A stretch of DNA of 63,621 bases, the filler included, from Barthelona sp. PAP020 (taxonomy: Eukaryota), in NCBI GenBank assembly GCA_040182905.1. It is 6 parts of 6 records of this genome, joined end to end, with 100 filler letters (N's around TTAATTAATTAA, not from the genome) between each part and the next. Parts side by side here need not be neighbours in the genome. Positions count along the whole stretch, not along the records: positions 31,986 to 42,508 come from JARQWU010000400.1; 5 more parts are not named here. One strand, written 5' to 3'. Position numbers and translations under genes: made by a program. Below are positions 25,101 to 41,867 of the stretch, piece after piece. The notes beneath the pieces are model-generated. The model had not been told where the DNA came from and ran no database searches. It worked only from the letters and a program-made list of their open reading frames with translations. Position 1 is the first letter of the stretch; every line of letters starts with the position of its first letter.

Positions 25101-28100
25101 AAAGATTTGCTTCAATTGATATTATTAAGTGGAATCGAAGGATATGCTAGAGATTTGATGGATATATTATCGAGGTTGAATTCAAGTATTGTTGAAAAGT
25201 TATATTTTTCAATTGAAACTTGGAAATGTTTGTTTAAAGCTTCATTAGATTCGAACAACTATCTTGAAGGAATTTCGAAGTTAGTTTTGAATAAGGCATG
25301 TGTAAGAGCATATCTGGAAACAATATTGAAAAATTTTTGGGATTTGAAACAGTTGTATGAAGAAACGAAATTGAATTTGATTTTCAGTTACATTATTTGT
25401 GTTTCTTTTGAATTGGATTGTCACAATGTGTTCATTGAATTGATGTCAGAAGAAAAAGAACAAGAAAAGAACAAGAAGAAATTTTTTTCCAATTTCCTTT
25501 ACGGATTCAGTTTGTATGTTGATACATGTGTTTTCATTGATTCTTTGGACTCAATTTCATCTATAATTGTATGTTTATTTGAAAACTTTAATAATGCAGA
25601 ATTGAACTATATTTTTGGACTATATTGTTGTAAGATGAAATTGAACACTCAAAGGGCGGATTTTATTGTGTCTAGTCAGTTATTGTACCACTGCTTAAAC
25701 AATGAGTTATTGATGAATGAATTTGGAACGTTTAGTGAGCAAACTAAACGACATTTACTATTAAGACTGACACACTCTCTATTTGGAGATAGTCAAACTA
25801 AAAACACTTTAACTTTAGATTTTAAGCCAATTTTATTCAAATATTTGATCAATTTTCCTGAATTAATAACTTTCAAAGAAGAAAATCCAATTTTTATGTT
25901 GATTGCTGAATACAATGAAAATGAAAATCTTCCTGAAGAATTCATCAAACAATTATTTGAAAATATTGATTTTCCAATATTTCATACAGATAATAGCGGA
26001 CAAAATATATTGCATATTTGTGCCTTGTATAATAAAGGGAAAGTTTTGCAGTATTTGAAGAATTTTGAGACGAATCCAAAAGAATGGGAAAAGCTACTAT
26101 TTATTAGAGATAAAGGAGGTTTAAATGTTATAGATATTATAAGGGTGAAAGATCCGTTGAAAGAAGGAGATTGTGAATTTATGGAGTGTTTATGCTATTT
26201 CATTCCTGAAATTTTGAATATTTTAATTTCTGATGAGAAAGAGAATAGGTGGGAATTTTGGGGATTGAATTTTTTTTTCAATAACTTGTTTTTGCTGAAA
26301 GATAATTGTGAGGTTCTAGCAAAGATTCTTGAAAGTGATAGATTAACGGATTTATCGTTAGAAATTTACACTGACACCAATTCTAAAAGAAAGGTTGCAT
26401 TAGGTTTGAATGTTTGGGAAAATATAGTGGTTACTTTATTGAAACATTTGAAACTTTTAAACGTTACTTTAACAGATAATAAGATAAGATTATTGATTGA
26501 ATTGGATAGTTTGAATGGAAATGTTTTTAAATATCAACCTTTGGTTTATTTAGCAAAAAATGATTCTGTTGATGAAATAAAGATGTTGGTCAACAATACA
26601 TATTTTCAAGCTGATAATCCTTTAATTACTGATGATGAGAATGCTCAAATAATCTTGAGATCAGCGTTAGACAACTGTTCAATCAAAGCATTTTTATTTA
26701 TCTCTAGTCTATGTCCACACATAGCAAGACAATTCTTTTCTGAAGCTTTAAAATTAGCTGTGGATAATTCTCATTATACTCTCTTTTTACAAACAATGAT
26801 TCATGAAAAAGTTTTTCTTGTAGATGATATTGTTGATGATCAAGGGAATACTATGTTACATTTGGCAATCAAAAATAAGAATATTGATCAAGCTCATTTG
26901 TTAAGACAATTAGGAGCGAATCCAAACATTGCTAACAAAAATGGAGACACTTGTGTTGATTTGGCTGTTGAAAATAATTATGGGGAATTGATGAGCGTTA
27001 TGGCCAATTCATTCAGTACCACTATTGTTGTTGGTTTATTTATGATTCTTTTTGTTTTACCATATTACTTACATTTTCCCATGCCTTTAGTTATTCTTGG
27101 GCTACAATCATTGTTATTAACTGTGCTAGGTTTTATTTATGTTAAACTGTTGGGTTATAAACAAACGTTGGGGAATCAATTATTAATTTTGATTAAGACA
27201 GCAACCTTTATATTTTCTTTATCATTATATTGTTGGTATTCGATTGAACGAGATAATTTGTTAGATGTTAATACGTTGAAATGGTGTATTGGAACGAATC
27301 ATTTACTTGCTTTGGTATTTACGTTGACTGAAATTCCTTCAATCAAAGGATTTTTAACAAGAAAGCAATACGTTAATTTTTTTTCATGTTTAATTTTACC
27401 ATTTCTTCAAGTATCAAGTTCATTTTTTACTGGAGAGAAAAGATTTTTATTTAATACTGATTTAACTTCAGCAAATTCGATTTTAAATACTTTATTACCT
27501 AAATTTTGGTTAATTATTCCACCATTAACCTTAATTGGACAATATGGTGCTATATATCAAAATATTTCTTTCTTTATGTTAACTTCAGTTATAAAAGCAA
27601 CAAGAAATGAAAATTATGTATTTTTAAACAGTGAATCTGATGGACAAGTATTTTTACTTATCTTTTTAAGTATTTGGTTAATTTATAGTTTATTATCAGT
27701 ACCTAATCCATTTTGTTCAGCAAGATTTCCTTTACCTACTACATTTTTGACTACCATCGTTGGTATCATTATGTTTGCTAATTACGATTTGTATGGTGTT
27801 GGTTCTTTTGTTATAGCAATCAGTTTAACCAATTTTAAAACTCATGGAATATCTAATCTGTTGGATGAAATTATTTTTGTCATCATTCAAACTATTGTTG
27901 CATATATTTGTTTCAATCAAAATGCTGCGTTTGAAAGGATGTTGAATTTATTGGCTTTACAATCTATATTTATAAGTCCAAGAGATTGGCCAACGTGTTT
28001 ATTGATCACTTTATCAATAGCTATTCCTCAACATATTAAAGTGTATAATTCTTATATTATCATCTTTTTGGTAATGATGATTGTATTGACATATATCAAT

Positions 28101-31100
28101 GGACAATTTAAATTTTTGAAAAAGAATCCCAGTAGAAACTATTTGTTAGATCCAACAAGTTTTGATGAATGTTATCAATACAAATTTAATCTTTCATCGT
28201 TATCAGTTTTACTCAGTTCAATCATGGCATGTTTTGCTTTATTGTATCAATTATCAATTGAAAATGCTTTTTATTTTAATATCACAAATTTTTCACGTTT
28301 TTCTATTGATCTGTTAATTATCTTACCCTTGATAATTTTGGGAATTCATTTGGGAGGATATCTTGGTTTTATCATTGTGCCATTAACATACATTAGTTTG
28401 AAAATATTTGATGTGAGTATTTTTGGAATAGTTTTAAATGTTTTGATTTTTTATATTTTTTTGTGGAATCTCGAAGATTCAGAACAAATAAATGATAATG
28501 ATGTTGATGAAAAAAGTATAGGACAAGGTAAAACAAAAAATTTATTATTGTTCACACTCAGTTGTACTGCATTCAACTTATTTTTATTTTTTGAGATAAA
28601 AACACCTTCTAAAGATTATTTAATTACATCTTTTGGTTGTTTATTCTTGTATATATTGAATTTTTTTATAAATACTTACTTGAAAGTACCTTTAAAATAT
28701 TTACTTAATTGTACTTTCTTTGGAGTTTTAGAATTTATTTGTGTTATTGCTAGTGAAAATAATCCCTATCTCTTGTATTTAGTAGTGATAAATTCATGTT
28801 GTTTGTGGATTTTTAACAATTTTTATCTAATGGTTAATGATAGGACAAAAGATTATTTTTCTTTCATTCATAGTTTTATTGCTTTGATGATTTCTTGCTA
28901 TACTTACGTTTATTATGATTTCTACACATTCATTTGTACACTTACAGGTATAAGTCTTAGTTTAATTTTATTGCAATTAAAAAATAGATCTGAAAAGTTT
29001 AGTGGACTTTCAATTTTTGTTGGCTCTCAAATCTTTCAAATATTGTTTATTTTGGGAATTGGACCACCATTACATGGTGTTTTAATTCGACCTAACAATA
29101 TTATATTATTTTTAGGAATTTTTGTATTAATATTTTGTCATTTTGCTATACAGACTGATTGGAAAATTATAGTCAATATTTCATTATTTGTTCTTATTGC
29201 TTGCAGTTTTGTACTTCATCTATTTTTGGCATTTGTTTCAAATGATCTCGTGATTCGATTTTATGGGTTCGTCAATTATTTAATTCAACCTTTTTTCATC
29301 ATAATTCTATTCAATAGCGTGATTTTTGCTAGAGCTATCTTATTTTTACCGTTATTTTTTGTTAATGTTTGGAGATTGCAAGATTTTTCTTCAATAATTT
29401 TTCTCATCAGTTTCTTCATCATTAATGCTGTGATTATTCCTAACTTTTTAGTTTACAAAAAAATTTTAAGCATGTTTCAACCAACCATTACATATATTCT
29501 GTTGCTTTTGACCTTTTTCAGAATTACTATTACTCCTTTAGCTTTTACTGAATTACTTTATGACAGGTCCATTTTTGTGTTATCTTGCCCTTTAATTATC
29601 ATCAGTACAATTCAATTTTTCTTTGACATTAAGAAATTTGAGTTGAAAATGCTTTACATTATCATTGAAAGTTTAACCAAGATTTGTATCTTGACTTTTC
29701 TTTTATCTTTTTCTTCACCCTCATATATTGTTGGATTAGGTGTATTAGCAATGGTAACTGATTCCAAAAGTATCTTATATCATTGTTTATTCATTAGTTT
29801 CATCATAAAAACAACAATGAACAGTAGTTTAGTTGATGTTGATAATTCATGGTGGTGGATCTTCATAATTGTTACATTGATAGTTCTATTGGTTTGTAGA
29901 ACAAGTATCTTTCCTATTGTTTCTTCTATTGATCATGTAATGAAAGAAATTCTTGGTAATAAAGAAAAGAAAGAAGATATTAACTCAGTGAATTTTATTT
30001 TGCTTGGAATAGCTTCTCTAATTTTTATTCCCTTGATGATTTGTATTTTGACCAAATCAAACATGTATATTGCTTATAGTTATGCAAGTGTTCATGTCTT
30101 TATTGGTATATATGTTTTAAAACATCATTGTGCATTTAATTTTGTTGACAAAAGTAGTTATGTTATTTTTTTGAGCATTTATTTAGTAATAGGCTCAATA
30201 ACTTATCTATTGTTGATGTTGATTTCTTCCTCTGATGAAGATCGAATGATTTGCAGTGCGGGATTTATAATTGGTATGACTTTCATCAATGGGTTTAATT
30301 TGCTTGATAATTATTGGTTAACAATTTCTTTTTATAGCATAAATTTACTCTCTGCTATGATTACGCTAGCAAATGGAAATGTTATGAACTTTCAAACAAT
30401 ACCAATCTTAATTATTTGTTTAATATCTGTAATTAAGATAGAAAGATGTTTTTATGATAGGGAAGAAAAGAATGATATTAATAAAGAAACTTTGCATGAA
30501 TATTTTGAAGAATTGTTTAAAAAATCAAAAATTTTTTCTTTCACAGATATAACTGTTAAATTCAATCATTTTAACTTAAAATTTGAAGAATATTTTAATG
30601 ATTGGCTTCAATATGGTTTTATTCAAGGTTTTATTTGTTGTTTGAGTTCAATTTTACCTTTAACTTTGTTAAGTCTATCTCAAGTATCATCTTCATCTTC
30701 AAATCAATTATTTAAAGCTATTTGTTCCACAATAATTATTGGTTTTTATGGTTTGATTTATGGACCAATAACATTCATTTTTTCATTTGGCTTTTCAATA
30801 TTTACATTGTTTATTTCTTTTCATAACCATTATTTCTTGCTATTAAGCATTTTTTGTGTTAGTTTTTCTTTATTTACTCCATTTATTTTACCTAATCTGT
30901 TTACAGGTCTTATGACGATAATTTTATGCTTTGTTTTAGAAACGAATGAAAATTATTTGAGATATATTTATTTTTCAGTAGTATTTGTATATATGATTGT
31001 GTTAATCTTTGTTATTGTTGTAAATACAAAGAAATTAAGAAAAGATGATGCTTTAACTGTTTTACCTATATTATTTACAGTTATTTTTTGCATTTTTGAT

Positions 31101-31724
31101 TATTTCATTACTATAAGATGTTTAAATAATATAGAAGTTGAATATATTCATTGGATATTTGTATGTTTAGTAAAAGGACTTCTTTTTGCTACGATTCTTT
31201 ATATTTTCAACAAAAATAATGCTGTTTGGTTTCAATTCATCTATTTATTAATCGGGGTCATTCCTTTAGCAATATATTGTAACTTTACTTCACATCAATA
31301 TGCTTTTCCATTTCTATTTACTTCAACTTTCATTGTTTATGTAAGAAAAGATGAACTAAAACAAGATTCTAATCATAAATTTTGGAATTGGTTATATCAT
31401 TGGTTTCCTGTAGGTAGTATTTTATATCAATATCAAGCTATTGCTAAAATTATCATGTTTGCAATTTATGATGAAAAAGAATTACTTTCTTTTGAAAATA
31501 TTGGCCTTTTTTCTTTAATTTTTGATTTTGTTGTTTTGATCTTTGTTCGAATATCTTGCTTTTTTGGACAAAATAAAACTTCTTGTTTATTTGGTAATCT
31601 TTTATGTGTACTTTATTATTTTTATCAAATAACTTTCTATTATGAATTGTTTTTACCAAAATCAATTTTGATCATCCCTACAATTATTCTTTTGTTTTCT
31701 TTAAGGTTTTTTTTTAAAGAATAA
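22170..31724 (+). CDS. Giant RING-kinase-RING-pseudokinase-ankyrin-polytopic membrane protein (3184 aa)
   Basis: C3HC4 RINGs at aa14-52 and aa415-448. TKL-like kinase aa~90-355 (GRGSFG, YAYK, HSD..N, DFG, APE, DVFSFG). Second kinase fold aa~480-725 (HRWLKPEN, DGM). Ankyrin repeats such as GNTMLHLAIKNKNIDQAHLLRQLGANPNIANKNGDT. Hydrophobic region from about nt 27020 to the end. Confidence 0.9.
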   Translation: MSHFDLNNFKTHICGLCQNLPVQPKTLPCGHTFCRDCLSRYLAMNSTACPTCGREYGSSIQSVDSLSCDPEVAKAIAQYSNINVISLDEIQPQQEIGRGSFGIVYRALYNNEIYAYKQISDITRQTHNTFFDEVFVQYHLNHKNVVKCYGLVEQNIQNDRKFIGIMFECAAMDLSHFLLSSFQLLSTAQKLQLILDIAKGIEYVHGFDIAHSDISDSNVVVFPEFDQAGNFIEVHGKLTDFGLAHARTSEISGRGSTLKALTPYCAPERYFLNHYDRKHCDVFSFGVLANQIMTGQIPFANMNIIQIQEAFRSSIRPLQAPDAPDGLNWVISMCWSLMPYERPTMSSVVTRLEHIVKAFRETHVLPSFEFDFGDWHGDYAELAQLGGGMGATSSNMFDHITGDARYRTIVSSSICKECSSLMQNSVSLICKHSFCEKCIAKLSVCSYCGGPKIVTPQTPKLVKDALEFVGRFESISMDAITDLVPLNRGGSLFELFECTYAGEKYVFKQCRPEVRFPLMTEATLLLQLKHRNLATPVGLIFDDNSSGLLYPRYQHNLIEFLAQDWVKDMDKFYVFRELVITINHMHSLGVTHRWLKPENIFVNMEEGRLRVIVDGMFLSHARECVEVISPFTDPSILFKRKNKTIEVDYKQADIYSLAGILYYMFVNEYPVEIGKLTNTAYLKLLHFGKRPTIPADAHPLLHLLVEKMWAKTDRINLNDALALLEQETGLFMRLMMGLLTDLDDLPQRDQNGRSWIDYFITYGNLGMVKSRKSAKKVQQLIDGCVSGKTNILHLIAKFNRYDFVEFFVSRIQQANISVNLTDENGNLPVALGFIHNNVETVDVMLAYDASPISVDGSKSPLQYAIANDILFDTIIDLSEMYDWEQLLVEIAEGCHYAYDNLWLDRLIERGLVDMNHILEISVRKGCLQVLNQWLKEEESKKIVMKFLQEFEFDYDKFRILSYTQMNQLFEVLIDLRLKDLLQLILLSGIEGYARDLMDILSRLNSSIVEKLYFSIETWKCLFKASLDSNNYLEGISKLVLNKACVRAYLETILKNFWDLKQLYEETKLNLIFSYIICVSFELDCHNVFIELMSEEKEQEKNKKKFFSNFLYGFSLYVDTCVFIDSLDSISSIIVCLFENFNNAELNYIFGLYCCKMKLNTQRADFIVSSQLLYHCLNNELLMNEFGTFSEQTKRHLLLRLTHSLFGDSQTKNTLTLDFKPILFKYLINFPELITFKEENPIFMLIAEYNENENLPEEFIKQLFENIDFPIFHTDNSGQNILHICALYNKGKVLQYLKNFETNPKEWEKLLFIRDKGGLNVIDIIRVKDPLKEGDCEFMECLCYFIPEILNILISDEKENRWEFWGLNFFFNNLFLLKDNCEVLAKILESDRLTDLSLEIYTDTNSKRKVALGLNVWENIVVTLLKHLKLLNVTLTDNKIRLLIELDSLNGNVFKYQPLVYLAKNDSVDEIKMLVNNTYFQADNPLITDDENAQIILRSALDNCSIKAFLFISSLCPHIARQFFSEALKLAVDNSHYTLFLQTMIHEKVFLVDDIVDDQGNTMLHLAIKNKNIDQAHLLRQLGANPNIANKNGDTCVDLAVENNYGELMSVMANSFSTTIVVGLFMILFVLPYYLHFPMPLVILGLQSLLLTVLGFIYVKLLGYKQTLGNQLLILIKTATFIFSLSLYCWYSIERDNLLDVNTLKWCIGTNHLLALVFTLTEIPSIKGFLTRKQYVNFFSCLILPFLQVSSSFFTGEKRFLFNTDLTSANSILNTLLPKFWLIIPPLTLIGQYGAIYQNISFFMLTSVIKATRNENYVFLNSESDGQVFLLIFLSIWLIYSLLSVPNPFCSARFPLPTTFLTTIVGIIMFANYDLYGVGSFVIAISLTNFKTHGISNLLDEIIFVIIQTIVAYICFNQNAAFERMLNLLALQSIFISPRDWPTCLLITLSIAIPQHIKVYNSYIIIFLVMMIVLTYINGQFKFLKKNPSRNYLLDPTSFDECYQYKFNLSSLSVLLSSIMACFALLYQLSIENAFYFNITNFSRFSIDLLIILPLIILGIHLGGYLGFIIVPLTYISLKIFDVSIFGIVLNVLIFYIFLWNLEDSEQINDNDVDEKSIGQGKTKNLLLFTLSCTAFNLFLFFEIKTPSKDYLITSFGCLFLYILNFFINTYLKVPLKYLLNCTFFGVLEFICVIASENNPYLLYLVVINSCCLWIFNNFYLMVNDRTKDYFSFIHSFIALMISCYTYVYYDFYTFICTLTGISLSLILLQLKNRSEKFSGLSIFVGSQIFQILFILGIGPPLHGVLIRPNNIILFLGIFVLIFCHFAIQTDWKIIVNISLFVLIACSFVLHLFLAFVSNDLVIRFYGFVNYLIQPFFIIILFNSVIFARAILFLPLFFVNVWRLQDFSSIIFLISFFIINAVIIPNFLVYKKILSMFQPTITYILLLLTFFRITITPLAFTELLYDRSIFVLSCPLIIISTIQFFFDIKKFELKMLYIIIESLTKICILTFLLSFSSPSYIVGLGVLAMVTDSKSILYHCLFISFIIKTTMNSSLVDVDNSWWWIFIIVTLIVLLVCRTSIFPIVSSIDHVMKEILGNKEKKEDINSVNFILLGIASLIFIPLMICILTKSNMYIAYSYASVHVFIGIYVLKHHCAFNFVDKSSYVIFLSIYLVIGSITYLLLMLISSSDEDRMICSAGFIIGMTFINGFNLLDNYWLTISFYSINLLSAMITLANGNVMNFQTIPILIICLISVIKIERCFYDREEKNDINKETLHEYFEELFKKSKIFSFTDITVKFNHFNLKFEEYFNDWLQYGFIQGFICCLSSILPLTLLSLSQVSSSSSNQLFKAICSTIIIGFYGLIYGPITFIFSFGFSIFTLFISFHNHYFLLLSIFCVSFSLFTPFILPNLFTGLMTIILCFVLETNENYLRYIYFSVVFVYMIVLIFVIVVNTKKLRKDDALTVLPILFTVIFCIFDYFITIRCLNNIEVEYIHWIFVCLVKGLLFATILYIFNKNNAVWFQFIYLLIGVIPLAIYCNFTSHQYAFPFLFTSTFIVYVRKDELKQDSNHKFWNWLYHWFPVGSILYQYQAIAKIIMFAIYDEKELLSFENIGLFSLIFDFVVLIFVRISCFFGQNKTSCLFGNLLCVLYYFYQITFYYELFLPKSILIIPTIILLFSLRFFFKE

Positions 31725-31985: not shown

Positions 31986-32253
31986 AGTCATTTTAGTGAA
32001 TTTTGGAAAAACTCAGGGTGTGAGATTCAGACTGAAAGTACATTGTGTGACTCCAGGTTGTATCTTTGGAAAGAACTTCTGACCCTGCTTTTTTGTATTT
32101 TTGCAAAAAGCAAAATTTTAAAGTTTAAACCTTATCTTAAAAAATCTAAAGTTTTCAACAGATCAATCGGGCCTTGAAAACCCTTAATCAAATAAACACT
32201 GTTCTTTTTTATTCACTCATACACAAGTGCTTCTTGGCCTGGAAATAATTTTG
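31986..32253 (+). repeat. Dispersed repeat family, copy B (truncated by contig start)
   Basis: AGTCATTTTAGTGAATTT.GGAAAAA..CAGGGTGTGAGAT.CAGACTGAAAGTACATTGTGTGA.TCCAGGTTGT is shared nearly base for base with 42726-42810; the downstream TCAACAGATCAATCG and ATTCACTCATAC motifs are also shared. Confidence 0.9.
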
Positions 32254-32404
32254 ATTCTTCTGTAACTAAAATAGATAACTTAAAGATTAAGCCTGGAAAC
32301 CAAAGACACCATTCCTTCTTATTTATTCACATTGTTAGGACTTTTTGGGCGGGAAATAAAGTGAAAAAATAAAATAGGTACATTTACAGCAAACAAAACA
32401 AACT

Positions 32405-35400
32405 TTAACAACAACAACAACAGGAACAATTGCAACACAGAGAACTATTCAAAATGTGAACCACTTCTGCACAATTATTTTTAATGGCAATATCAGAAGG
32501 AGTCAACCCCATTTTATTCACAGCAAATTTATCCCAAATATCAAGAACCAATAAATGATTAATTATTTCAACTGACTGTTCAATGTGTGAACAAGCATTT
32601 AAACAAGCTAAATGAAAAGGATTGTTCCCAAAATTATCTATAAAAGTATGTTGAGAATCAACATCAAGTTGTGAAGAAGAAAACTCCAAAATAACCTTTA
32701 AATCACCTTTTAAACAAGCACTCATAAATGCATTGCGTCCATATTCGTCAACAAACGATATATTTCTTTTAGGTACAATAACACCTGTATGAGAACGATT
32801 AAAATGAGATTGTATCAATTTATATTCATCTCTTGTTACAACAAGTCCATCATTAATTAATTCCAAAACAAATTGACTATTAATTGGAAGAATTATTTGC
32901 AAAATTTTGTTTAAAATATTTCCTTGCTTTTCAATGGAAAGTTTTATGAGTTCACTTTTAAAATATTCAAAATTTTCAATAAATTTTTGATAAAATAATG
33001 AAATATCATGTGAAAAATCAATTATCGAAAAACCAAAAGGAGTTTTTCCGTTTCCAAGAATAACACCATGGTTTGGTTGTGTACAGACACTAAAAATATG
33101 ATGATTAGATGTTTCTTTTGTTTGAATCAATTCATTGTTAACTAAACTCCAAATTTTAATCACTCCATTGAAATCAACACTAATAACACGATCAGTATTA
33201 TCTAAAAACGATAGGGCATATACCCAATCAGAGTGTGTACCCAATATTGTGGATTCTTTGGTTATTTCATTATTTATAACATGTTCAGATTCATTAAATG
33301 TCCATAGTCTTACAGTTTTATCATCACCACAACTGATAACAATATTTTTGTCCATTATAACCCCTCTAACCGCACCTTCATGACCAGAAAATGTTTTTAC
33401 AATTCCTAAATCATTTGGATTTATGATATTGACAATGCCATCATCACCAGCACTGATTAAATACTTTCTATCATTGGAAAATCTCAAACAATTTACTTCT
33501 GTTCGATGTATAGATGCCATATTAATGGGACTATCATCAAGTTGATTATAATTTTCATTTAAACTATCAGTTTGATTAATTATTTCTATTTTCCAAGCAT
33601 AAATAATCCCTGATTGATCTGCAGCATAAAATCTTTTCAAATTTTCTCCAATTGCCACTCCATAAACAGGTCTTTCCAATGTATATCGTTTGATAACCGT
33701 CCAATCATTTTCAATATCATATAAAACAATAGAACAATCTGAAGAACAAGAAATAAACCTATTCTTCATGAATTTTAAATCGTATATTGTTGAAGAATGA
33801 TCATGAAGATGAATAATCAAACTTTTGGTTTTAATATCAAAAATACTGATAGAACCATCAAAAGAACCTATGGCAAACATCGTATTTGAACTTTCAATAA
33901 TTGAAATAGTGGTTGAATAATTATAAAAATTTATATCTGAATTCAATGTGCTATTAAATTTTAGAGGTGTTTCAAGTGTTAAAAGTTGAGCAAACATGTT
34001 GAAATTTTTGGTCAATAGACAATATTCGGTTAAACCATCAATATTCAAACCTTTATCTTTCAAAAATTGTAAAAATAAAAATTTTCCATAATCAATACAT
34101 AGTTTAGCTAATTCCTTTGATTTTAATAATATATTCTTTTCTTCAGAACTAGTTTTTGAGAATAAATCAATCAAATCGATTTCACTAATATCAAAAATAT
34201 TAAAATCTACAATAATTCTTTTGAATTCTATCTCGTTAAGTATTTTTACACTTTTTGCTAGTAATTCAAATGGATTATTTTTCTTCATATCCTGAATTTG
34301 TTTTACATTGCTTTGTATTGCACTTTTAATCAACAAATCTTTGTCAATACTTGATATATCAATATTATCAACGCCACTTTTTAATGGAAGTTCAGCAGAA
34401 AACACTTTTCGATGTTCAAATCCTACTTTTTGAATATTTGGCAAATTCATACTTCCAAAGTTAACAGTATCTGCTAGTTTTGCTAGATCAAAGGATTTCA
34501 ATTCGTCTATATTCCCAGATTTATTTAAATTTCGAAGAATTGTCGATTCAAATACTTCTTCGTCACTGTCGTTGTCATTGTCATCATCATCATTATCAAT
34601 ATTGTTATTTTCAGTTTCAGTTTCGTTTAGCAATTTCTCGTCTTCACTAAAATTAATATTTTCAACTGTTTTCTTTTGTTCTTCTGATAACAAAAGCTCA
34701 GATTTGACACTATTATCATCAAGTGGCTCTTCAAAAGCATCATTGAAAATGGTATCAATTTCTTTACTCTTTTCAACTTCATTTTCTAAAAAACACATGT
34801 TTAAATCATTGAAATTGTCGGAATTAAGCTCATAAGTGGTGTCTTCAGTTGAAATACTGTCCATAGCTGATGAATTTCGTTTTAAATTAGAATTATGACT
34901 CATTTTCGATTTTGATATGGTACAACTTAATGAAAGATCAATCATTCCTTCACCAGAATAAGAATATACAGAAGAAGCTCTTTTTGTCATTTCTTCATCT
35001 ATACTAACAGGTATCTTAGATTCAACATAATCTGATTCTTTCAGATTTGCAATCATTATTGTGTTCTTTTGAATATTTGTCAATAATCTTTCCAAAAAAA
35101 TTGATATTTCACCCATCAACGGTCTATTTTCAGGTATCATATCAAAACATTTTAACAATAATTCAGAACCAGGAATACATTCAATTTCTTTTATATCAAA
35201 AGGTGGTTGTCCTTTTGATAATTTTAGTATTATATGAACATCATCTAATCCAGGAAATGGTTCTAATCCAGTCATTACATGAAAATAGGTGGCTCCAAAC
35301 CCCCATGAATCAATTGCTGGACTAGGTGATTCTGGTATTTCTTGAACAAGTTCAGGTGCAGAATAAGAAACTGAACCAATCACTGAATTTCTTCCCAAAC

Positions 35401-36502
35401 GATCAGAAGCTCTTGATAAACCAAAATCAGCCAAAACTGCTGAACCTTCATTTGTTAAAAGAATATTACGTGGAGTAACATCGCGATGTATAACTCCATT
35501 AGTATGACAATAATCTAATGCAACAGCTACTTGCATCAAAATCTTCAAACGATTCACAACATTTAATTTTGTGATTTCATTTTCTAATGATGTTCTATAC
35601 AATTCCATAACAATACCCCAATCACCTGCATTATTCTGGGTCATCCCATATATTCGACATATAAATGGAGTTTGATATTGAATTGTAAAACACTCTTTTC
35701 TTACATCTTCCATGGATGATCGATAAAGAAATTTTATTGCAACATCTCGATCCCAATATCTTCCTTTAATAATGAATCCATATCCACCTCTTTGAAATGA
35801 CTGTCCCTCAACTTTAAGACTATCATATGGAATAATGTCAACATTAAAATTTCGTTGTTGACATTCTTTATGAAGAATTAATCGAACAAGGTTTTCATAC
35901 TCAGAATGTCTTTGTTGAGCTTGATCAATTAATAATCGTTGCATATCTACATTTTGTTGCCGTAAAATTCTCATCTGAAGATCAAGATGTGCTACATGTT
36001 CATCAATACGTTTGTTTATAATGTTTGGTAATCGTGTAATACTATATGAAGCTAACATCACCTGTAATGCATCAGAACAACGATCTATTTGTGCATGCAA
36101 TTTTTTTAAATCTCTTAGATTTCCTTCACTTAAAATAATTTGCATTATAAAATTTCTGTCATTGAATTGTTCAATTTTTTCATTGGAACGTTCACAAATT
36201 GAATAAAATGTATTTAAACACGAAACAAACTCTCTTTGATAAATGATATCTGAATTTGAACTTATTAATCTTTCAAAATTTTCAACCAACCAAATAATTC
36301 TTGCAAATAATAATGAACTTTCTTCTTTTGCAATATTTAACGATATTAAAGAGGTTGCCATTTTACAAACAACACTCACAACCGGAATATCCAATTTTGC
36401 AACATGTTCAAATATATCTTGGAATGGTAATGTTTTAACGGTTGTAATAAATTCACTGCTATTTTCTAATGCTAAATGAATCAAATCAGATTCAACATTC
36501 AT
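32405..36502 (-). CDS. MLKL-like four-helix bundle, protein kinase, WD40, ankyrin and poly-Cys tail protein (1365 aa)
   Basis: First ATG at 36502 (the ORF track starts at TTG 36508). Helical N-domain; kinase with VAIK, HRD..PRN, DFG and APE; WD40 repeats (GHEGAVRGV...SCGDDKTVRLW; HSDWVYAL); ankyrin repeats (YGRNAFMSAC, FGNNPFHLAC, MGLTPSDIA); ends CCNCSCCCCC. Confidence 0.88.
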   Translation of the reverse strand: MNVESDLIHLALENSSEFITTVKTLPFQDIFEHVAKLDIPVVSVVCKMATSLISLNIAKEESSLLFARIIWLVENFERLISSNSDIIYQREFVSCLNTFYSICERSNEKIEQFNDRNFIMQIILSEGNLRDLKKLHAQIDRCSDALQVMLASYSITRLPNIINKRIDEHVAHLDLQMRILRQQNVDMQRLLIDQAQQRHSEYENLVRLILHKECQQRNFNVDIIPYDSLKVEGQSFQRGGYGFIIKGRYWDRDVAIKFLYRSSMEDVRKECFTIQYQTPFICRIYGMTQNNAGDWGIVMELYRTSLENEITKLNVVNRLKILMQVAVALDYCHTNGVIHRDVTPRNILLTNEGSAVLADFGLSRASDRLGRNSVIGSVSYSAPELVQEIPESPSPAIDSWGFGATYFHVMTGLEPFPGLDDVHIILKLSKGQPPFDIKEIECIPGSELLLKCFDMIPENRPLMGEISIFLERLLTNIQKNTIMIANLKESDYVESKIPVSIDEEMTKRASSVYSYSGEGMIDLSLSCTISKSKMSHNSNLKRNSSAMDSISTEDTTYELNSDNFNDLNMCFLENEVEKSKEIDTIFNDAFEEPLDDNSVKSELLLSEEQKKTVENINFSEDEKLLNETETENNNIDNDDDDNDNDSDEEVFESTILRNLNKSGNIDELKSFDLAKLADTVNFGSMNLPNIQKVGFEHRKVFSAELPLKSGVDNIDISSIDKDLLIKSAIQSNVKQIQDMKKNNPFELLAKSVKILNEIEFKRIIVDFNIFDISEIDLIDLFSKTSSEEKNILLKSKELAKLCIDYGKFLFLQFLKDKGLNIDGLTEYCLLTKNFNMFAQLLTLETPLKFNSTLNSDINFYNYSTTISIIESSNTMFAIGSFDGSISIFDIKTKSLIIHLHDHSSTIYDLKFMKNRFISCSSDCSIVLYDIENDWTVIKRYTLERPVYGVAIGENLKRFYAADQSGIIYAWKIEIINQTDSLNENYNQLDDSPINMASIHRTEVNCLRFSNDRKYLISAGDDGIVNIINPNDLGIVKTFSGHEGAVRGVIMDKNIVISCGDDKTVRLWTFNESEHVINNEITKESTILGTHSDWVYALSFLDNTDRVISVDFNGVIKIWSLVNNELIQTKETSNHHIFSVCTQPNHGVILGNGKTPFGFSIIDFSHDISLFYQKFIENFEYFKSELIKLSIEKQGNILNKILQIILPINSQFVLELINDGLVVTRDEYKLIQSHFNRSHTGVIVPKRNISFVDEYGRNAFMSACLKGDLKVILEFSSSQLDVDSQHTFIDNFGNNPFHLACLNACSHIEQSVEIINHLLVLDIWDKFAVNKMGLTPSDIAIKNNCAEVVHILNSSLCCNCSCCCCC

Positions 36503-36657
36503 GTTCAATCGAAAAAATCAAAAATTATTTCAAACAAAAATAACCACAATTCATTTATTTATTTCCCCAAGAAAAGAAATCATTTGTATTTAAATATTTT
36601 ATGAAAGGACATTAATGGAACAAAAAAAAACTTCAAACAATACTAGCCCTGCTTCAA

Positions 36658-37590
36658 TCAATTGTCTCTTTTGATTCTTTGAATTGGTAAAGAAGGATGT
36701 TGTGAAGTTCCAGAATCTAATAGCCATCTTCCCGTCCAATTAACGGTTCCAATTTTACCAGTGTTGTTTTCAATGCATAAATCTTGATTATTCTTTTTAT
36801 TAGTGGAAGAAGGATGAATTCTACGTTTTTTTTGTGTAATTATTGTTCGTTGACTCACGTTTTTGACACTTTGAGAGCGGTTTATACCAATATTTCTTTT
36901 CTTTGGTGCATTTGTAAATTGTAAGGCAGGTATTGGTTCCATAGTTCCAATTCCTGCTCCTACTTGAGGTATATTTGATGAAATTCCAGAAAAGATTGAA
37001 AAAGGTGCCCAATGAGCAGGTAAATTTAGGTTCACAATTGTTGTGTTTGGAAGAGAAACAACTAAACCTGAGGAATCCAATTCAAGATTGAGCCAAATCT
37101 TTTTCAAATCATAATAGATGGTTCTGTAATCTTGACTGGTGACAGATAATCTGTAATCCAAGAGTGTCAACATTATCATCTCCAATTGATTCATTTCTGC
37201 TAATGTAATTGCAGAATCTGCAACGAGAGAAAAGGAATAAGAAGAACATGAAATATCATCACAAAATTTTGAGGCCAAAACAATACACATGAAAGTTAAA
37301 CGTTGCCAATTCCAAATTGTCACTTTTAATCCAACTCGTGTAATAATTTTATGCATGTAAAGCAGAGCTGCTAATAAACATTCTGGTTCTACTTGTGCCC
37401 GACGAAATATCCCATAAATGAATTTATAAATTGTCAAATATGAAGGACAATCTGACTGTATTTCTTTTCTGTCCAATCCTTGTAGTGGATCTGCTGTAGA
37501 CTTTAACCGTGAAGAAGAATTGGAATGTTGAATGAGACCATAAATAACTCCTGACATTCCCTTCACTGTATTATTAAACTGCATTGTCAT
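36658..37590 (-). CDS. Cyclin Y-like cyclin
   Basis: IYKFIYGIFRRAQVEPECLLAALLYM...NWQRL...LASKFCDD...EMNQLE..ML.LLDYRLSV....Y...YYDL matches the cyclin Y-type cyclin box. Confidence 0.85.
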   Translation of the reverse strand: MTMQFNNTVKGMSGVIYGLIQHSNSSSRLKSTADPLQGLDRKEIQSDCPSYLTIYKFIYGIFRRAQVEPECLLAALLYMHKIITRVGLKVTIWNWQRLTFMCIVLASKFCDDISCSSYSFSLVADSAITLAEMNQLEMIMLTLLDYRLSVTSQDYRTIYYDLKKIWLNLELDSSGLVVSLPNTTIVNLNLPAHWAPFSIFSGISSNIPQVGAGIGTMEPIPALQFTNAPKKRNIGINRSQSVKNVSQRTIITQKKRRIHPSSTNKKNNQDLCIENNTGKIGTVNWTGRWLLDSGTSQHPSLPIQRIKRDN

Positions 37591-37832
37591 ATAAAAGGTC
37601 TTTATCCTTTACGTTTGGAAATTACCATCTTTCCAAATGAAAAAGTAGTAATTATCTGAAAACAAAATTACTAACCATTTTTGATTTTTTTGATTTGTGA
37701 TGATATATTGATCAAACATGAATAAACAATTAATTATCAAAAACAAATCGAAACAGAAAATTTATAAATTTTGAAAACAAAAACTCATCATTCAAAAAAA
37801 TTGTTAGACTAAAATAATACACACTCAAATGA

Positions 37833-39521
37833 TTAATAAATAACATTAACTCCATATATTTTGTTATGATAGATCCGTAAGTAAAAACATATTCCTAAAA
37901 TGATGAAAATGATGAAAAGAATTATTTTTGTTTTTCCTCCCATTTTAACGATCTTTTTTGAAGTTTCTTCTGATTTAAATGTTTCATCTTTTTGAATAAT
38001 TTTTTCATTCACCATTTGATCAGCAACCTTTGTCAATTTTTTAAAAACATCACTATCTTCATAATTAGCAAAATCTGTTGACTCTTCTAAAAAGACAGCC
38101 AAAAACTTAAGATAATCAAATTGTATTTTGTCATCAAGAGAAATCTTCACTTTATTATTTTTGGCCCACATGTGAGTTTCATATACAAAATTCTTAGTAG
38201 AAATGTTATCTTCAAAAACTAACGTTTTCATCTGATCTTCAACCAATTTGTAGGAATCAGCACAAATACCAATTCTTTCAATGTGATGTGTGTTGTTTCG
38301 AGATACAGAGAAATACAATTCTCTTTCTTCTTCGAAATATTTGGCTTGAATTATTCTTCCTTTTACATTAAAGGTGTCAATGATATTTTCCGCAGATGTG
38401 TCCAATAAATATATAAGTCCACTGCGCTCACAGCAAAGCAAAAGTTCCTTATCAATAAAAAATAAACTTCTTAAAGGACTGTCAATGTTAATGGTTTTAG
38501 ATATTGAAAATTCTTTATCTTCACTTCTAATGTCATAACAAAAACACAAATGATCTTCATAAACTAATATTAACGTGTCATGTTTTTGATCATATGCAAT
38601 TACACGCATATCAGACTTTTTGGTTGATGAAATTGTCCCAATTAATTCACAATCTTCTTCAGAATATTCAATTATTGCACATACGCCTTTATTTGAATGT
38701 ACAGCTAAACGATTACTTCCAAGATTTTTAATGGTCCAAATATGATTTATTCCTTTAAAACGTTTGCGATAATTTACTGTTTTACCATTGATACCTTCAA
38801 TAGAACGACAATATAACATACCAACTGAATCAACAGTAAATAACAAATCTCCAACTATTATTCCATCTTGAACCCATTTAAGAATTTTTTTTCCATTTTT
38901 CATTAAAGTGTATGTGTATTCGTTGAAAAATTCGTAGTTTTTTAAATCTCTTGAGTATTTTAACAACGTACATTTTCCATTGTTACCACATATTCCACAA
39001 TACTCACCATCATCGGAAAAGAAAATTGAGTTAAAACCTAGTGTTCGTTTTGAATGAAATGCAATTTGTTCTATCTTCAGATCTTCCAGTGCTTTTTTAT
39101 TAACCTGTAAGATAAATTTGCCACTGTTATCTCCAATGCCCATAAATAAATTATCATCTTTCTTTATAACAGCCAAAGCATAAATAGCATCATCAAATAG
39201 TTCAGGTTCAAATTCAGAAGATTCAACAGGTTTATTTATTAACATTGATTCTTTGCTTGTGTTCCATGGTTGAATATAAAATAAACAGAGACTCAAAGCT
39301 TTAATATCTTTCATTGTCGTACAATAATAAAGGCAATGTGAATTAAAATAAGGGTCAAGGCTAAAATCAATTGAACGAAAATATTCATTAAGCTCCAGAT
39401 AATAACCTCTATCAACCAAAAATTCAAAAAACTCAATCTTATTTCCATCAGCCAACGAATATTCTTTGCACTTCAGTATTAAATCAAAAACAGACAGTTG
39501 TTTTTGCTGATCAGACGCCAT
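37833..39521 (-). CDS. WD40-like beta-propeller protein with a C-terminal membrane anchor
   Basis: Degenerate WD-like strands (IGDNSGKF, CGNNGKC, VDSVGML, CERSGLIYLLD) and a C-terminal TM IILFIIFIILGICFYL flanked by basic residues. Confidence 0.7.
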   Translation of the reverse strand: MASDQQKQLSVFDLILKCKEYSLADGNKIEFFEFLVDRGYYLELNEYFRSIDFSLDPYFNSHCLYYCTTMKDIKALSLCLFYIQPWNTSKESMLINKPVESSEFEPELFDDAIYALAVIKKDDNLFMGIGDNSGKFILQVNKKALEDLKIEQIAFHSKRTLGFNSIFFSDDGEYCGICGNNGKCTLLKYSRDLKNYEFFNEYTYTLMKNGKKILKWVQDGIIVGDLLFTVDSVGMLYCRSIEGINGKTVNYRKRFKGINHIWTIKNLGSNRLAVHSNKGVCAIIEYSEEDCELIGTISSTKKSDMRVIAYDQKHDTLILVYEDHLCFCYDIRSEDKEFSISKTINIDSPLRSLFFIDKELLLCCERSGLIYLLDTSAENIIDTFNVKGRIIQAKYFEEERELYFSVSRNNTHHIERIGICADSYKLVEDQMKTLVFEDNISTKNFVYETHMWAKNNKVKISLDDKIQFDYLKFLAVFLEESTDFANYEDSDVFKKLTKVADQMVNEKIIQKDETFKSEETSKKIVKMGGKTKIILFIIFIILGICFYLRIYHNKIYGVNVIY

Positions 39522-39818
39522 ATTTTTAACTCTATTTTAAAAAAAAATCTGTTGCGAATAGTAAAATAAATTGATAAAATTTTTAAATATGAAATTTTGG
39601 TGATTACATGTGATAAATAATGAATACTGCCAAATATCTTTTACATAAGTTTTAAATCTAGAACAAAAAAAAAAGAGGTTAAAGTGAATCAAATTGTTTT
39701 GCATTTTCAAATCATCTAACACTATTTTGTTTAAATAATAAATCAAAAATAAAAAAAAACGAGAAAAAGGATAAAACAAAAAGAAAAAGACAAATCATTC
39801 ATTTTTTTTAATTTTCAC

Positions 39819-40967
39819 ATGCCTTTATTGACATTTTCATTACCAATTTCATCAGAAAAAAGTGAAAATGTGTTTATTAGAGAGTTAACACAATTACTAT
39901 CTCCACACACCAAACTTATTATCAAGAAATATCCTAATTTTGCGTTTGGTAACCTGGATTCATTGTTAGCATTAGCTGATGACATGGCTAAAGCTTCATT
40001 GAACTTTCAAAACCTTTGTTATCGATTGGAAAAGACTATTTATGATTTAAAGAAAGAACAGATCTTACAATCAAACTTACCGATAAACGATGAAGCATTA
40101 CGTCATATTGAGGTTGAATTAGATAATGTTTCTATGAGTGTAGAAGATTATTTTTATGGATTAGATTGGTCAAAGAGTGATTATAATCCTGGTATTACAC
40201 CTCAAAGTATTTTTAGTAAGTTACAACAAGAATTTACTAGTATCGATGAAGAATTTAAAGTGTTTCCTCAGAGTATTAGTCAATTAAAGGCTCAATTGAC
40301 ACAAATGGAACGTCAATTAAGAGGTCCTTTGACGACAAGAGCTTTGGATGATCTAATTCCCCAAAATCTTTTCATAAATAAGGAATTCATTGTTTCTGTA
40401 TTCATTGTAGTTCCTTTGAGAGATCAAGAGAAGTTTTTGAACAATTATGCATTATTGGATGAAAATATTGTTCCTGAATCTGCTATTGAAATATTTAAAG
40501 ATAAAAACCATTATTTATACCGTGTTGTTCTGTTTAAACAAATATTACAATCTGTCAAAGATAAATGTCGTGATAATGGTTGGAGATTGAGAGAATATGT
40601 TCCACCTATAGAAAAGAATGTAAATTTTGAAGAAAAATTCAATGAATTGAAAAAGAAAGTAACTAAAAAGACCAATGATTTTCAATATTTTTCAATAGCT
40701 GCTTTTTCTGAAGCTCTAACTTTATTATATCATTTGAATCATTTAAGACTATTTATTGAATCAGTTTTAACATATGGTCCACCTCATCAAACTTCCCATA
40801 ACAGTTTTCTTTCTGCTATGTGTGAGATTAACACAAAGAATGAAAGTCGAATCAAAGAGTCACTTCATAATACTTTCAATTATCTTCAAACTGGCATCGA
40901 ATTAGATCCTACTGATATTTTGGAGGGTATTGTTAATATTGAATTTCTTTTGCATGCAAAATTATGA
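39819..40967 (+). CDS. VMA5: V-type ATPase V1 subunit C
   Basis: PNFAFGNLDSLLALADDM, GPLTTRALDDL, IVPESA, LYRVVLFK and LRLFIESVLTYG.PP. Confidence 0.92.
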   Translation: MPLLTFSLPISSEKSENVFIRELTQLLSPHTKLIIKKYPNFAFGNLDSLLALADDMAKASLNFQNLCYRLEKTIYDLKKEQILQSNLPINDEALRHIEVELDNVSMSVEDYFYGLDWSKSDYNPGITPQSIFSKLQQEFTSIDEEFKVFPQSISQLKAQLTQMERQLRGPLTTRALDDLIPQNLFINKEFIVSVFIVVPLRDQEKFLNNYALLDENIVPESAIEIFKDKNHYLYRVVLFKQILQSVKDKCRDNGWRLREYVPPIEKNVNFEEKFNELKKKVTKKTNDFQYFSIAAFSEALTLLYHLNHLRLFIESVLTYGPPHQTSHNSFLSAMCEINTKNESRIKESLHNTFNYLQTGIELDPTDILEGIVNIEFLLHAKL

Positions 40968-41033
40968 GTATCAAAGTAAAAGCAACAAAATTTTGTTTTC
41001 CTTTTTTTTTTTTGGATTTTTTTATCAGACATT

Positions 41034-41867
41034 ATGTCAGGAATTATGTTAACCAAAACACTGTGTATACGAAATTGTGGAATGCAAAAACGGTCGGGAG
41101 AGAATGAGGACAGTTTTTTGCAAAAAATTACAACTTTGATGTTAGATTCAAAGAAATTAAATGATATTCAAGCTGTATGTTTTTGTCCAAATACAGAAAT
41201 ATTGTATTTAAATGATAATATGATCGATAACATTGAAAGTTTAAGATATTTACATAGAATTACTCAATTACATTTAGAAAACAATAAAATAGAAAATATT
41301 TCAATAATGTCTACATTTTCAACAATTAAGCAAATATTTTTAGATTTCAACAATATTTCAAATTGTTCTTTTTTGCAAAGTTTCACTAATTTAGAGCTAC
41401 TAAACTTAAGTCATCAAAATTCAGAAATGTTAACAATATTTCCAGATTACATCACAACATTATCTTTAAAGCATTTGGATTTATCATATAATAAGCTTGA
41501 AAATGTAGATTTCCTATTAAATTGTACTTCTTTGGAAACTTTGATCGTAAATGATTGCCAAATAGAAGATTGGAGAGTCTTTTTGAGAAGTTTGTCAAAT
41601 ATGCCGAAACTAAAGAAAATCGATTATCGTAATAATCCTGGTTTAACCAAAGGAGATAGATTTTTTGATCAAAAAGTTTTGTATTTTACATCCTATCGAC
41701 TGAAAGAACAAAACGATAAGGATATCAGACAAGGTGAAATTGCAAGAGCAAGGAATTGGGCAGCTAGAGCTTCTATTGTAACCAAAGATAACAATAAATC
41801 AAGAGTTAAAGTTCAAAATAATACAGAACCAAATTTATTTGTAGTTGGGCATTCAACACAATTGTAA
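41034..41867 (+). CDS. PPP1R42: SDS22-like LRR protein, PP1 regulatory subunit 42 (LRRC67)-like
   Basis: N-terminus LT.....RN.....R..E.....LQKIT followed by LYLNDNMIDNIESL and LHLENNKIENI LRRs and an LRR cap (IDYRNNP). Confidence 0.75.
   Translation: MSGIMLTKTLCIRNCGMQKRSGENEDSFLQKITTLMLDSKKLNDIQAVCFCPNTEILYLNDNMIDNIESLRYLHRITQLHLENNKIENISIMSTFSTIKQIFLDFNNISNCSFLQSFTNLELLNLSHQNSEMLTIFPDYITTLSLKHLDLSYNKLENVDFLLNCTSLETLIVNDCQIEDWRVFLRSLSNMPKLKKIDYRNNPGLTKGDRFFDQKVLYFTSYRLKEQNDKDIRQGEIARARNWAARASIVTKDNNKSRVKVQNNTEPNLFVVGHSTQL

What the first reader, a model, noticed from the sequence alone, without database searches (positions are those of the whole stretch)
32405..36502. Single-chain MLKL-like executioner domain, active kinase and WD40/ankyrin repeats: candidate protist cell-death/immunity switch
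Seen: aa~40-153 (ORF-track numbering; nt ~36391-36050) is an amphipathic helical domain, IPVVSVVCKMATSLI..AKEESSLLFARIIWLVENFERL..LNTFYSICERSNEKIEQFNDRNFIMQII......DLKKLHAQIDRCSDALQV. A coiled-coil/brace-like helix (aa~160-215) follows, then a TKL-like kinase (nt ~35818-35084) with intact VAIK, HRD and DFG, an acidic linker, a WD40 propeller (~33925-33015) and ankyrin repeats (~32750-32450). Established: the order four-helix bundle, brace, kinase fold is that of MLKL, whose bundle permeabilises membranes in necroptosis; animal and plant MLKLs carry pseudokinases; WD40 and ankyrin arrays are common sensor domains of fungal NLRs. From memory, ERSNEKIEQFNDRN resembles human MLKL EEANGEIEKFSNRS. 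Inference: sensor, kinase and pore-forming effector are fused in one protein in a unicellular flagellate, NLR-like logic with a kinase in place of the NTPase. I know of no characterised protein with this architecture.
Basis: partly seen in the sequence, partly recalled or inferred. Interest (0 to 1): 0.88.

Follow-up and report, generated by a model that had tools for sequence, protein, structure and literature searches.

The report
Protist MLKL-like kinase with swappable repeats
A single-celled eukaryote, probably an anaerobic flagellate, has one gene that joins a helical bundle related to the animal cell-killing protein MLKL, a kinase with intact catalytic motifs, WD40 and ankyrin repeats and a cysteine-rich tail; the protein is predicted to form tetramers and likely works as a self-activating, membrane-damaging defence switch, but no activity has been tested.

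Summary
Observation confirmed. The 1,365-aa ORF is intact: N-terminal bundle, brace, kinase (VAIK, HRD, DFG), WD40, ankyrins. Three homologues, all from Barthelona sp. PAP020, keep bundle, brace and kinase; the two complete ones end in WD40 only or ankyrin only. A profile of the four N-domains matches human MLKL (E 6e-6, 106 gapless positions). The fold search alone was inconclusive but gave the same register. Four copies of aa 1-200 are predicted to bind (0.74, best control 0.00; possibly from memory), with contacts in the register of the published human MLKL tetramer model. New here: a conserved 34-residue extension before helix 1 and a Cys-rich tail (a homologue ends in a CaaX-like motif). 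Against pore formation: K16/R17, K26, R30 and D107 have no like residue, and the extension may block helix 1. Bundle plus intact kinase is already known (wheat Pm13), as are fungal MLKL-family proteins with Sel1 repeats. The scan noted similar bundle-kinase-repeat proteins in other protist genomes before. Verdict: new variant of a known kind; killing is untested.

The parts
32405..36502 (-). Whole ORF, 1365 aa (P0001), no introns needed
36389..36502 (-). N-terminal extension aa 1-38 (34 residues ahead of the position of MLKL Met1), acidic, predicted short helices, present in all four family members
   Evidence: offset +34; alignment; charge; helices (pLDDT about 50-60)
36047..36388 (-). MLKL-type four-helix bundle, aa 39-152
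   Evidence: profile to human MLKL E 6e-6; Pfam MLKL_N E 1.4e-4 in 1 of 4 members; VIA match to 6ux8 Z 7.8, rmsd 4.1, 113 aligned, same register
35849..36046 (-). Brace helix, aa 153-218, predicted four-chain coiled coil
   Evidence: helix 160-199; interface 158-198 in the predicted tetramer
35078..35818 (-). Protein kinase, about aa 229-475, catalytic motifs present
34403..35062 (-). Acidic, Ser/Asn-rich linker aa 481-700, likely disordered
   Evidence: charge count; no Pfam family at E<=0.01; disorder inferred
33929..34402 (-). Segment aa 701-858 of unknown family, likely helical
   Evidence: no Pfam family, no PDB sequence better than E 0.16; helical nature judged by eye
33014..33928 (-). 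WD40 beta-propeller, about aa 859-1163, repeats diverged from each other
32447..32764 (-). About three ankyrin repeats, aa 1247-1352
32408..32437 (-). Cys-rich C-terminus (8 Cys in the last 10 residues), candidate lipidation signal
   Evidence: 1 of 29 window ORF ends is like this, Cys frequency 1.7%; homologue P0122 ends CCILM

Best explanation
This gene encodes an MLKL-type four-helix bundle, a brace, a kinase with intact catalytic motifs, WD40 and ankyrin repeats and a Cys-rich tail in one chain, and it likely works as a self-activating defence switch: the repeats would bind a trigger, the kinase would phosphorylate a neighbouring copy, the brace is predicted to zip four copies together, and the freed bundles would damage the membrane to which a lipid on the tail likely tethers the protein. 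Shown: domain order, MLKL homology of the bundle, a family with constant head and variable tails. Predicted: the tetramer. Inferred from MLKL and NLR biology: resting autoinhibition by the extension and first brace turns, ligand sensing, trans-autophosphorylation in place of RIPK3, lipidation, membrane damage. The 220-residue acidic linker would give the slack for an N-terminal bundle to reach a membrane held by the C-terminus.
For: Family profile matches human MLKL bundle over 106 gapless positions, E 6e-6; best non-MLKL hit E 0.054. Sequence and structure alignments (6ux8: model 56-173 on chain 22-139; 6zvo: 58 on 24) give the same +34 register. R68 (MLKL R34, whose R34E change blocks killing, passages) is invariant in 4 of 4. 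Predicted tetramer of aa 1-200: score 0.74, best of 3 controls 0.00, runs agree in at least 83% of contacts, pLDDT at least 73; the mark was reached by 21 of 30 proteins solved as pairs of one chain and 0 of 23 single chains (eukaryotes 17 of 29 and 0 of 30; only 1 of 7 with no older solved relative); counts hold only roughly for four copies. Its best contacts put 148 and 152 on the neighbour's 72, 75, 79, which map to L114, V118 on L38, P41, L45 of the human tetramer model. Tails differ among relatives: WD40+ankyrin here, WD40 (P0122), ankyrin (P0124), with 44-45% kinase identity but only 21% over part of the WD40 region. WD40, ankyrin and TPR are the sensor repeats of fungal NLRs. Two of three complete members end in Cys motifs.
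Against: No activity data. MLKL K16/R17 map to T50/S51, K26 to an invariant Glu, R30 to Leu, D107 to Arg (an invariant Asp lies one position off), E111 to Ala. A 34-residue extension precedes helix 1, as in fungal Goodbye/BaMLKL domains whose killing is called unproven. Plant MLKL immunity can be separated from cell death and the role of the Pm13 bundle is open. The monomer model is modest (pLDDT 65.6, pTM 0.47, helices 1 and 2 fused); Foldseek found nothing at E<=0.001 and MLKL ranked 8th, tied with unrelated bundles. The tetramer pass may come from memory of solved plant MLKL tetramers or of generic coiled coils, and the human tetramer it resembles is itself a prediction backed by negative-stain EM and mutants. 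The WD40 repeats show no internal conservation above shuffles (10 of 33 against shuffle mean 9.1), unlike fast-evolving het-type sensors. P0124 has no Cys tail. Catalytic-loop Lys is Thr.
Confidence: 0.45

Rival explanations
1. Non-lytic signalling kinase: the bundle and brace serve as an oligomerisation and membrane-docking module that switches the kinase on, and the output is phosphorylation of other proteins (as proposed for kinase fusion proteins such as Pm13, or cell-death-independent plant MLKL immunity).
For: Kinase motifs intact and the most conserved part of the family (44-45% against 26-30% for the N-domain). Basic and acidic killing residues of MLKL mostly not kept. N-terminal extension (for the precedent). 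AtMLKL immunity separable from death. The predicted tetramer fits this reading equally well.
Against: The bundle keeps R34 and the predicted helix 4 on helix 2 packing of the active human model. A plain coiled coil would do for oligomerisation; keeping an MLKL-type bundle suggests a further job (inference).
Confidence: 0.33
2. Two-step family: paralogues with repeats act as sensor kinases whose own bundle is masked, and they phosphorylate or co-assemble with a shorter paralogue that does the killing (RIPK3-MLKL-like division of labour inside one family).
For: At least three paralogues exist in Barthelona sp. PAP020; they keep a basic residue at the K16/R17 positions (3 of 3) where this protein has none. 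Earlier scan notes describe kinase/pseudokinase pairs in fungi (unchecked).
Against: No pseudokinase or tail-less member was found; P0123 is cut off in the kinase. No second bundle gene in the window. The genome is not held, so paralogues could not be counted.
Confidence: 0.12
3. The N-domain is an unrelated helical bundle or a decayed relic, and the MLKL likeness reflects amphipathic helices only.
For: Single-sequence E-value is only 0.068; 3 of 4 members have no MLKL_N hit; fold searches do not single out MLKL; mouse MLKL scores only E 0.063.
Against: Profile E 6e-6 without gaps, four orders of magnitude ahead of any other protein; independent Pfam MLKL_N hit; same register by structure, with the highest identity among the 50 rows (19% and 21%); followed by brace and kinase in MLKL order; 26 invariant columns across four proteins.
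Confidence: 0.06

Closest known systems
Vertebrate MLKL (PDB 6ZVO, 6UX8, 2MSV, 4BTF)
   Same: Homologous four-helix bundle, brace, kinase fold in the same order; R34 kept; predicted tetramer in the register of the human model
   Different: Catalytic motifs intact; 34-residue extension; about 890 residues of linker, WD40, ankyrins and Cys tail; K16/R17, K26, R30, D107 not matched; no RIPK3 known
Wheat Pm13 and the MLKL_NTD-kinase proteins of grasses (PMC10951266, passages read)
   Same: MLKL_NTD + brace + kinase with all key catalytic residues; an immunity gene
   Different: Pm13 has no repeat tail and its kinase is RLK/Pelle; kinship of the kinases was not tested here
Arabidopsis MLKL1-3 (10.1101/681015, passages read; PDB 6KA4)
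   Same: Bundle + brace + kinase fold, tetramer through the brace
   Different: Pseudokinase, Ser-rich tail; solved tetramer is the repressed state; no match of the family profile to it at E<=10
Fungal HELL/MLKL-kinase fusions and Glomeromycotina MLKL-family proteins with Sel1 repeats (PMC12881547, PMC8778642, passages read)
   Same: Bundle with kinase or pseudokinase; in Glomeromycotina a repeat domain as well
   Different: Uncharacterised; Sel1 rather than WD40/ankyrin; catalytic state not given in the passages read
Fungal all-in-one NLRs with HeLo-like, Goodbye or BaMLKL heads (PMC9815663 section 12, PMC4986451 passages)
   Same: Effector head, central switch, interchangeable WD40/ankyrin tails; extra helices before helix 1 as in Goodbye/BaMLKL
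   Different: No NACHT/NB-ARC domain; a kinase sits in its place; repeats lack high internal conservation

Membership tests
MLKL/HeLo/RPW8 four-helix-bundle superfamily (domain) | Sequence-profile homology to the MLKL N-terminal domain | tested here: met
   Family profile E 6e-6 to human MLKL, 106 gapless positions; Pfam MLKL_N E 1.4e-4 in 1 of 4 members, P0122 by elimination; this protein alone E 0.068 and no Pfam hit
MLKL/HeLo/RPW8 four-helix-bundle superfamily (domain) | Four-helix-bundle fold | tested here: inconclusive
   Model pLDDT 65.6 with helices 1-2 fused; MLKL Z 7.8, rmsd 4.1, 113 aligned, tied with unrelated bundles; Foldseek blank
MLKL (necroptosis executioner) | Order bundle - brace - kinase fold | tested here: met
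MLKL (necroptosis executioner) | Pseudokinase lacking catalytic residues | tested here: not met
   VAIK, alphaC Glu, HRD, DFG, APE present
MLKL (necroptosis executioner) | Brace-mediated oligomer | tested here: inconclusive
   Predicted tetramer 0.74 against best control 0.00 (21 of 30 true pairs, 0 of 23 single chains reach the mark); a prediction, possibly from memory
MLKL (necroptosis executioner) | Residues needed for killing (K16/R17, R34, D107/E111) | tested here: inconclusive
   R34 kept in 4 of 4; K16/R17 absent here, one basic residue in 3 of 3 homologues; D107 is Arg with invariant Asp one position off; E111 is Ala here, Asp in 2 of 3 homologues
MLKL (necroptosis executioner) | Membrane permeabilisation and cell death; activation by RIPK3 | not testable with these tools
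   needs bench work; genome not held
MLKL_NTD-kinase fusion proteins (Pm13 type) | MLKL_NTD + brace + kinase with all key catalytic residues | tested here: met
   definition
MLKL_NTD-kinase fusion proteins (Pm13 type) | Kinase of the RLK/Pelle LRR_8B group | not tested
   no tree built; best PDB kinases are STK3/4, RSK, B-Raf
NLR (STAND) receptors | Central NACHT or NB-ARC NTPase | tested here: not met
   kinase in the central position; none among the 25 of 41 Pfam families shown, none in aa 481-861 or 1162-1365
NLR (STAND) receptors | Interchangeable C-terminal WD40/ankyrin/TPR repeats | tested here: met
   WD40+ankyrin, WD40, ankyrin in the three complete members

The most novel reading that the evidence does not exclude
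A free-living anaerobic metamonad carries a family of one-protein necroptosis switches: a lipid-anchored receptor that senses an intruder with swappable repeats, phosphorylates itself in place of RIPK3, tetramerises and perforates its own membrane, so MLKL-type lytic defence runs in single cells on a branch far from animals, plants and fungi.
Probability: 0.3. Interest if true: 0.87.

Novelty: new variant of a known kind. Interest (0 to 1): 0.62.

Why it matters
If the bundle kills, this is a minimal test case for two open questions: whether unicellular eukaryotes use MLKL-type lytic death or membrane attack in defence, and whether the RIPK3-MLKL pair is a split form of a self-activating kinase. 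A natural lipid-anchored, one-chain version can be expressed alone in yeast and dissected with kinase-dead, tail-less and extension-less variants. If it does not kill, it still extends the MLKL_NTD-kinase architecture to metamonads and shows repeat swapping on a kinase scaffold.

Tried and rejected
No whole genome is held, so paralogues in this organism were not counted; no second bundle or WD40 paralogue in the window. Word-indexed searches: aa 20-480 gave 251 hits of 5,894 candidates, the 120 listed being generic kinases, none with the N-domain by profile (best E 0.62); aa 25-200 against shorter proteins gave 0 of 129; the N-domain profile against longer proteins returned only P0124 among 7,992 candidates. 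The fourth hit (P0125) is a bacterial choline-binding repeat protein and was dropped as spurious. Metagenome and viral scans with the N-domain profile: 0 of 31 and 0 of 82 pattern matches; with the kinase included, 9 of 119, all kinase-only at 24-30% and without the N-domain. No sequencing run was listed. The ESM Atlas gave no answer. Single-sequence AlphaFold of aa 1-480 was unusable (pLDDT 35.9). Foldseek on the aa 1-200 model found nothing at E<=0.001. Homology between aa 781-1240 and the neighbouring WD40 gene is unproven (1 of 500 shuffles for a short piece picked by eye, 25 of 300 for the whole). The pre-propeller segment is not a detectable copy of the ankyrin region (158 of 500 shuffles). 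The giant RING-kinase gene at 22170-31724 was set aside as a partner because it lies on another assembly piece. Daskalov 2016 (PMC4790977) was not held. Literature searches for a prior description in metamonads or other protists showed none in the listed results; (MLKL + EukProt) gave 0 papers. The library lacks most subscription papers, only the top rows of large result sets were seen, and no supplements were read (the Pm13 and fungal NLR supplements may list further architectures).
Full report
The observation. The window holds one uninterrupted ORF at 32405-36502 on the minus strand, 1365 aa. The window is a chain of assembly pieces about 10.6 kb long joined by N44-12nt-N44 spacers; the gene lies whole on piece 31986-42508. 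Pfam gives a protein kinase (aa 235-467), a WD40 propeller (about aa 858-1162) and ankyrin repeats (aa 1259-1351), and nothing for aa 1-220. The kinase has VAIK K257, alphaC E270, HRD 339-341, N346, DFG 359-361 and APE. Two deviations: Gln replaces the first Gly-loop glycine, and Thr replaces the catalytic-loop Lys, as in one homologue. From general kinase knowledge (recalled) neither rules out activity. The kinase group is unresolved: best solved relatives are STK3/STK4, RSK and B-Raf at E 1e-21 to 1e-19.

The family. A full HMMER scan of 1.84 billion representatives with aa 21-225 gave 4 hits at E<=0.001. Three are real and all come from the Barthelona sp. PAP020 proteome in EukProt: P0122 (N-domain, kinase, WD40, ending CCILM), P0123 (N-domain, kinase, cut off) and P0124 (N-domain, kinase, ankyrins). 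The fourth is a bacterial repeat protein and was dropped. Kinase identity to the three is 44-45%, against 28-33% for the next nine kinases by E-value among the 124 proteins held; N-domain identity is 26-30%; the WD40 regions of P0001 and P0122 align at only 21% over 155 residues. So head and kinase are constant and the tails vary. Barthelonids are anaerobic metamonad flagellates (search listing and abstract starts). That this window comes from such a lineage is an inference from these homologues alone.

Is the N-domain an MLKL bundle? The single sequence finds human MLKL as 6 of 7 PDB hits at E<=10, best E 0.068. A profile of the four N-domains raises this to E 6e-6 over 106 positions without a gap; the best non-MLKL hit is at E 0.054 and mouse MLKL at 0.063. 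Pfam MLKL_N hits 1 of 4 members at E 1.4e-4 (P0122 by elimination). AlphaFold with the four-sequence alignment gave pLDDT 65.6, pTM 0.47, with helices 1 and 2 fused and helix 1 uncertain. Foldseek found nothing significant. VIA-align placed MLKL 6ux8 eighth of 50 rows (Z 7.8, rmsd 4.1, 113 aligned, 19% identity, the highest in the list), tied with unrelated bundles and with the ZAR1 and G10 resistosome heads; 6zvo scored Z 6.1. The fold test is therefore inconclusive by score, but both structure alignments give the same +34 residue offset as the sequence alignment. I take the homology as established and the closed four-helix fold as likely.

Oligomer. Four copies of aa 1-200 were predicted to bind: score 0.74, best of 3 controls 0.00, runs agreeing in at least 83% of contacts, pLDDT at least 73 (the alignment was not used). 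In calibration the mark was reached by 21 of 30 proteins solved as pairs of one chain and 0 of 23 single chains; on eukaryotes 17 of 29 and 0 of 30, but only 1 of 7 without an older solved relative; the counts hold roughly, since they are for two copies. The interface is a brace coiled coil (158-198) plus helix 4 residues 148 and 152 packed on the neighbour's 72, 75 and 79. With the +34 offset these are L114 and V118 on L38, P41 and L45, the contacts named for the active human MLKL tetramer model (PMC10603135, passages). That human tetramer is a ColabFold model backed by negative-stain EM and mutants, and plant MLKL tetramers are solved (10.1101/681015, passages), so the pass may show likeness, not binding.

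Killing residues. R34, whose change to Glu blocks killing, is R68 and invariant. K16/R17 (PMC6013482, passages) map to T50/S51; the three homologues each keep one basic residue there. K26 is an invariant Glu, R30 a hydrophobic residue, D100 mostly Lys, D107 Arg here with an invariant Asp one position earlier, E111 Ala here and Asp in two homologues. A charge swap between helices 2 and 4 is possible but speculative. A review notes that the basic residues are poorly conserved even among MLKLs (PMC12463104, passages). All four proteins have about 34-39 extra acidic residues before helix 1, as fungal Goodbye and basidiomycete MLKL-like domains do, for which the authors hold killing to be unproven (PMC9815663, section 12).

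The tail. The protein ends in 8 Cys among 10 residues; none of the other 28 window ORF ends looks like this and Cys makes up 1.7% of residues. Five TGT codons in a row could be slippage, but TGT is the usual Cys codon here (231 against 43) and P0122 ends in a different Cys motif of CaaX form (pattern recalled), which points to selection for a lipid anchor; P0124 has none. The WD40 repeats are no more alike than shuffles; only 10-22% of fungal NLR repeats show high internal conservation (PMC4986451, passages), so this counts little. Residues 701-858 match nothing.

Mechanism. Most likely (0.45): a membrane-tethered, autoinhibited monomer; a ligand on the repeats clusters copies; the kinase phosphorylates a neighbour's activation loop, doing the job of RIPK3; the brace straightens into a four-chain coil; the bundles assemble and damage the membrane. 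Only the architecture, the homology and the family pattern are shown; the tetramer is predicted; the rest is inferred from MLKL and NLR biology. Rivals: a non-lytic signalling kinase that uses the bundle and brace to oligomerise (0.33); sensor kinases acting on a separate executioner paralogue (0.12); a non-MLKL or relic domain (0.06).

What is known. Bundle, brace and intact kinase are described for wheat Pm13, with 714 MLKL_NTD-kinase proteins listed for grasses and Arabidopsis (PMC10951266, passages). HELL domains fused to kinases or pseudokinases are noted for fungi (PMC12881547, passages), and MLKL-family proteins with Sel1 repeats for Glomeromycotina (PMC8778642, passages). A preprint on an Anaeramoeba symbiont names MLKL only in a figure legend on bacterial effector candidates (section 16 part 1 of 2). 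Nine searches showed no description of such a protein in a metamonad, nor of a natural Cys-tailed form; the library is partial and no supplements were read. Earlier notes of this scan describe bundle-kinase proteins with ankyrin, MORN, LRR or propeller tails in other protists (AI notes, not checked), while sequence look-ups found no look-alike of this family. The protein is not MLKL proper (no pseudokinase) and not an NLR (no NTPase); it fits the MLKL_NTD-kinase architecture and adds swappable repeats and a likely lipid anchor.

Verdict. Real and correctly described; new variant of a known kind; interest 0.62. The bold reading, a one-protein necroptosis switch in a free-living metamonad, has probability about 0.3 and would deserve 0.87.

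Noticed in passing
window 22170-31724 (+): 3184-aa ORF with two RING fingers, two kinase domains, ankyrin repeats and a very long hydrophobic, apparently multi-pass C-terminal half without a Pfam family. Unusual receptor-like architecture; on a different assembly piece from the finding.
   Followed up: no
window 10579, 21250, 31886, 42509, 53108: N44-TTAATTAATTAA-N44 spacers about 10.6 kb apart (one read, positions): the window is a chain of separate assembly pieces, so gene order across them means nothing. A further run of 442 N lies at 51304-51745.
   Followed up: yes
window 37833-39521 (-): 562-aa WD40-like protein with a hydrophobic C-terminal segment, two genes from the finding; weak colinear likeness to aa 790-975 of the finding's protein, not significant overall.
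   Followed up: partly
window 36658-37590 (-): Cyclin (Pfam PF08613) directly upstream of the finding on the same strand, 155 bases away.
   Followed up: no
window 4468-5685 (-): DHHC palmitoyltransferase: the assembly encodes an enzyme class that could acylate the Cys tail.
   Followed up: no
window 5811-9635 (-) and 14845-16119 (-): ORFs of 1274 and 424 aa with no Pfam family.
   Followed up: no
window 2911-3627 (-) and 1946-2767 (+): DUF4464 protein (recalled as a ciliary protein) and a tubulin-family fragment, in line with a flagellate.
   Followed up: no
P0124 residues 558-815: The Barthelona paralogue has regular ankyrin repeats (best 22 of 33 identical, mean 45%), far more alike than the repeats of the finding's protein.
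   Followed up: partly
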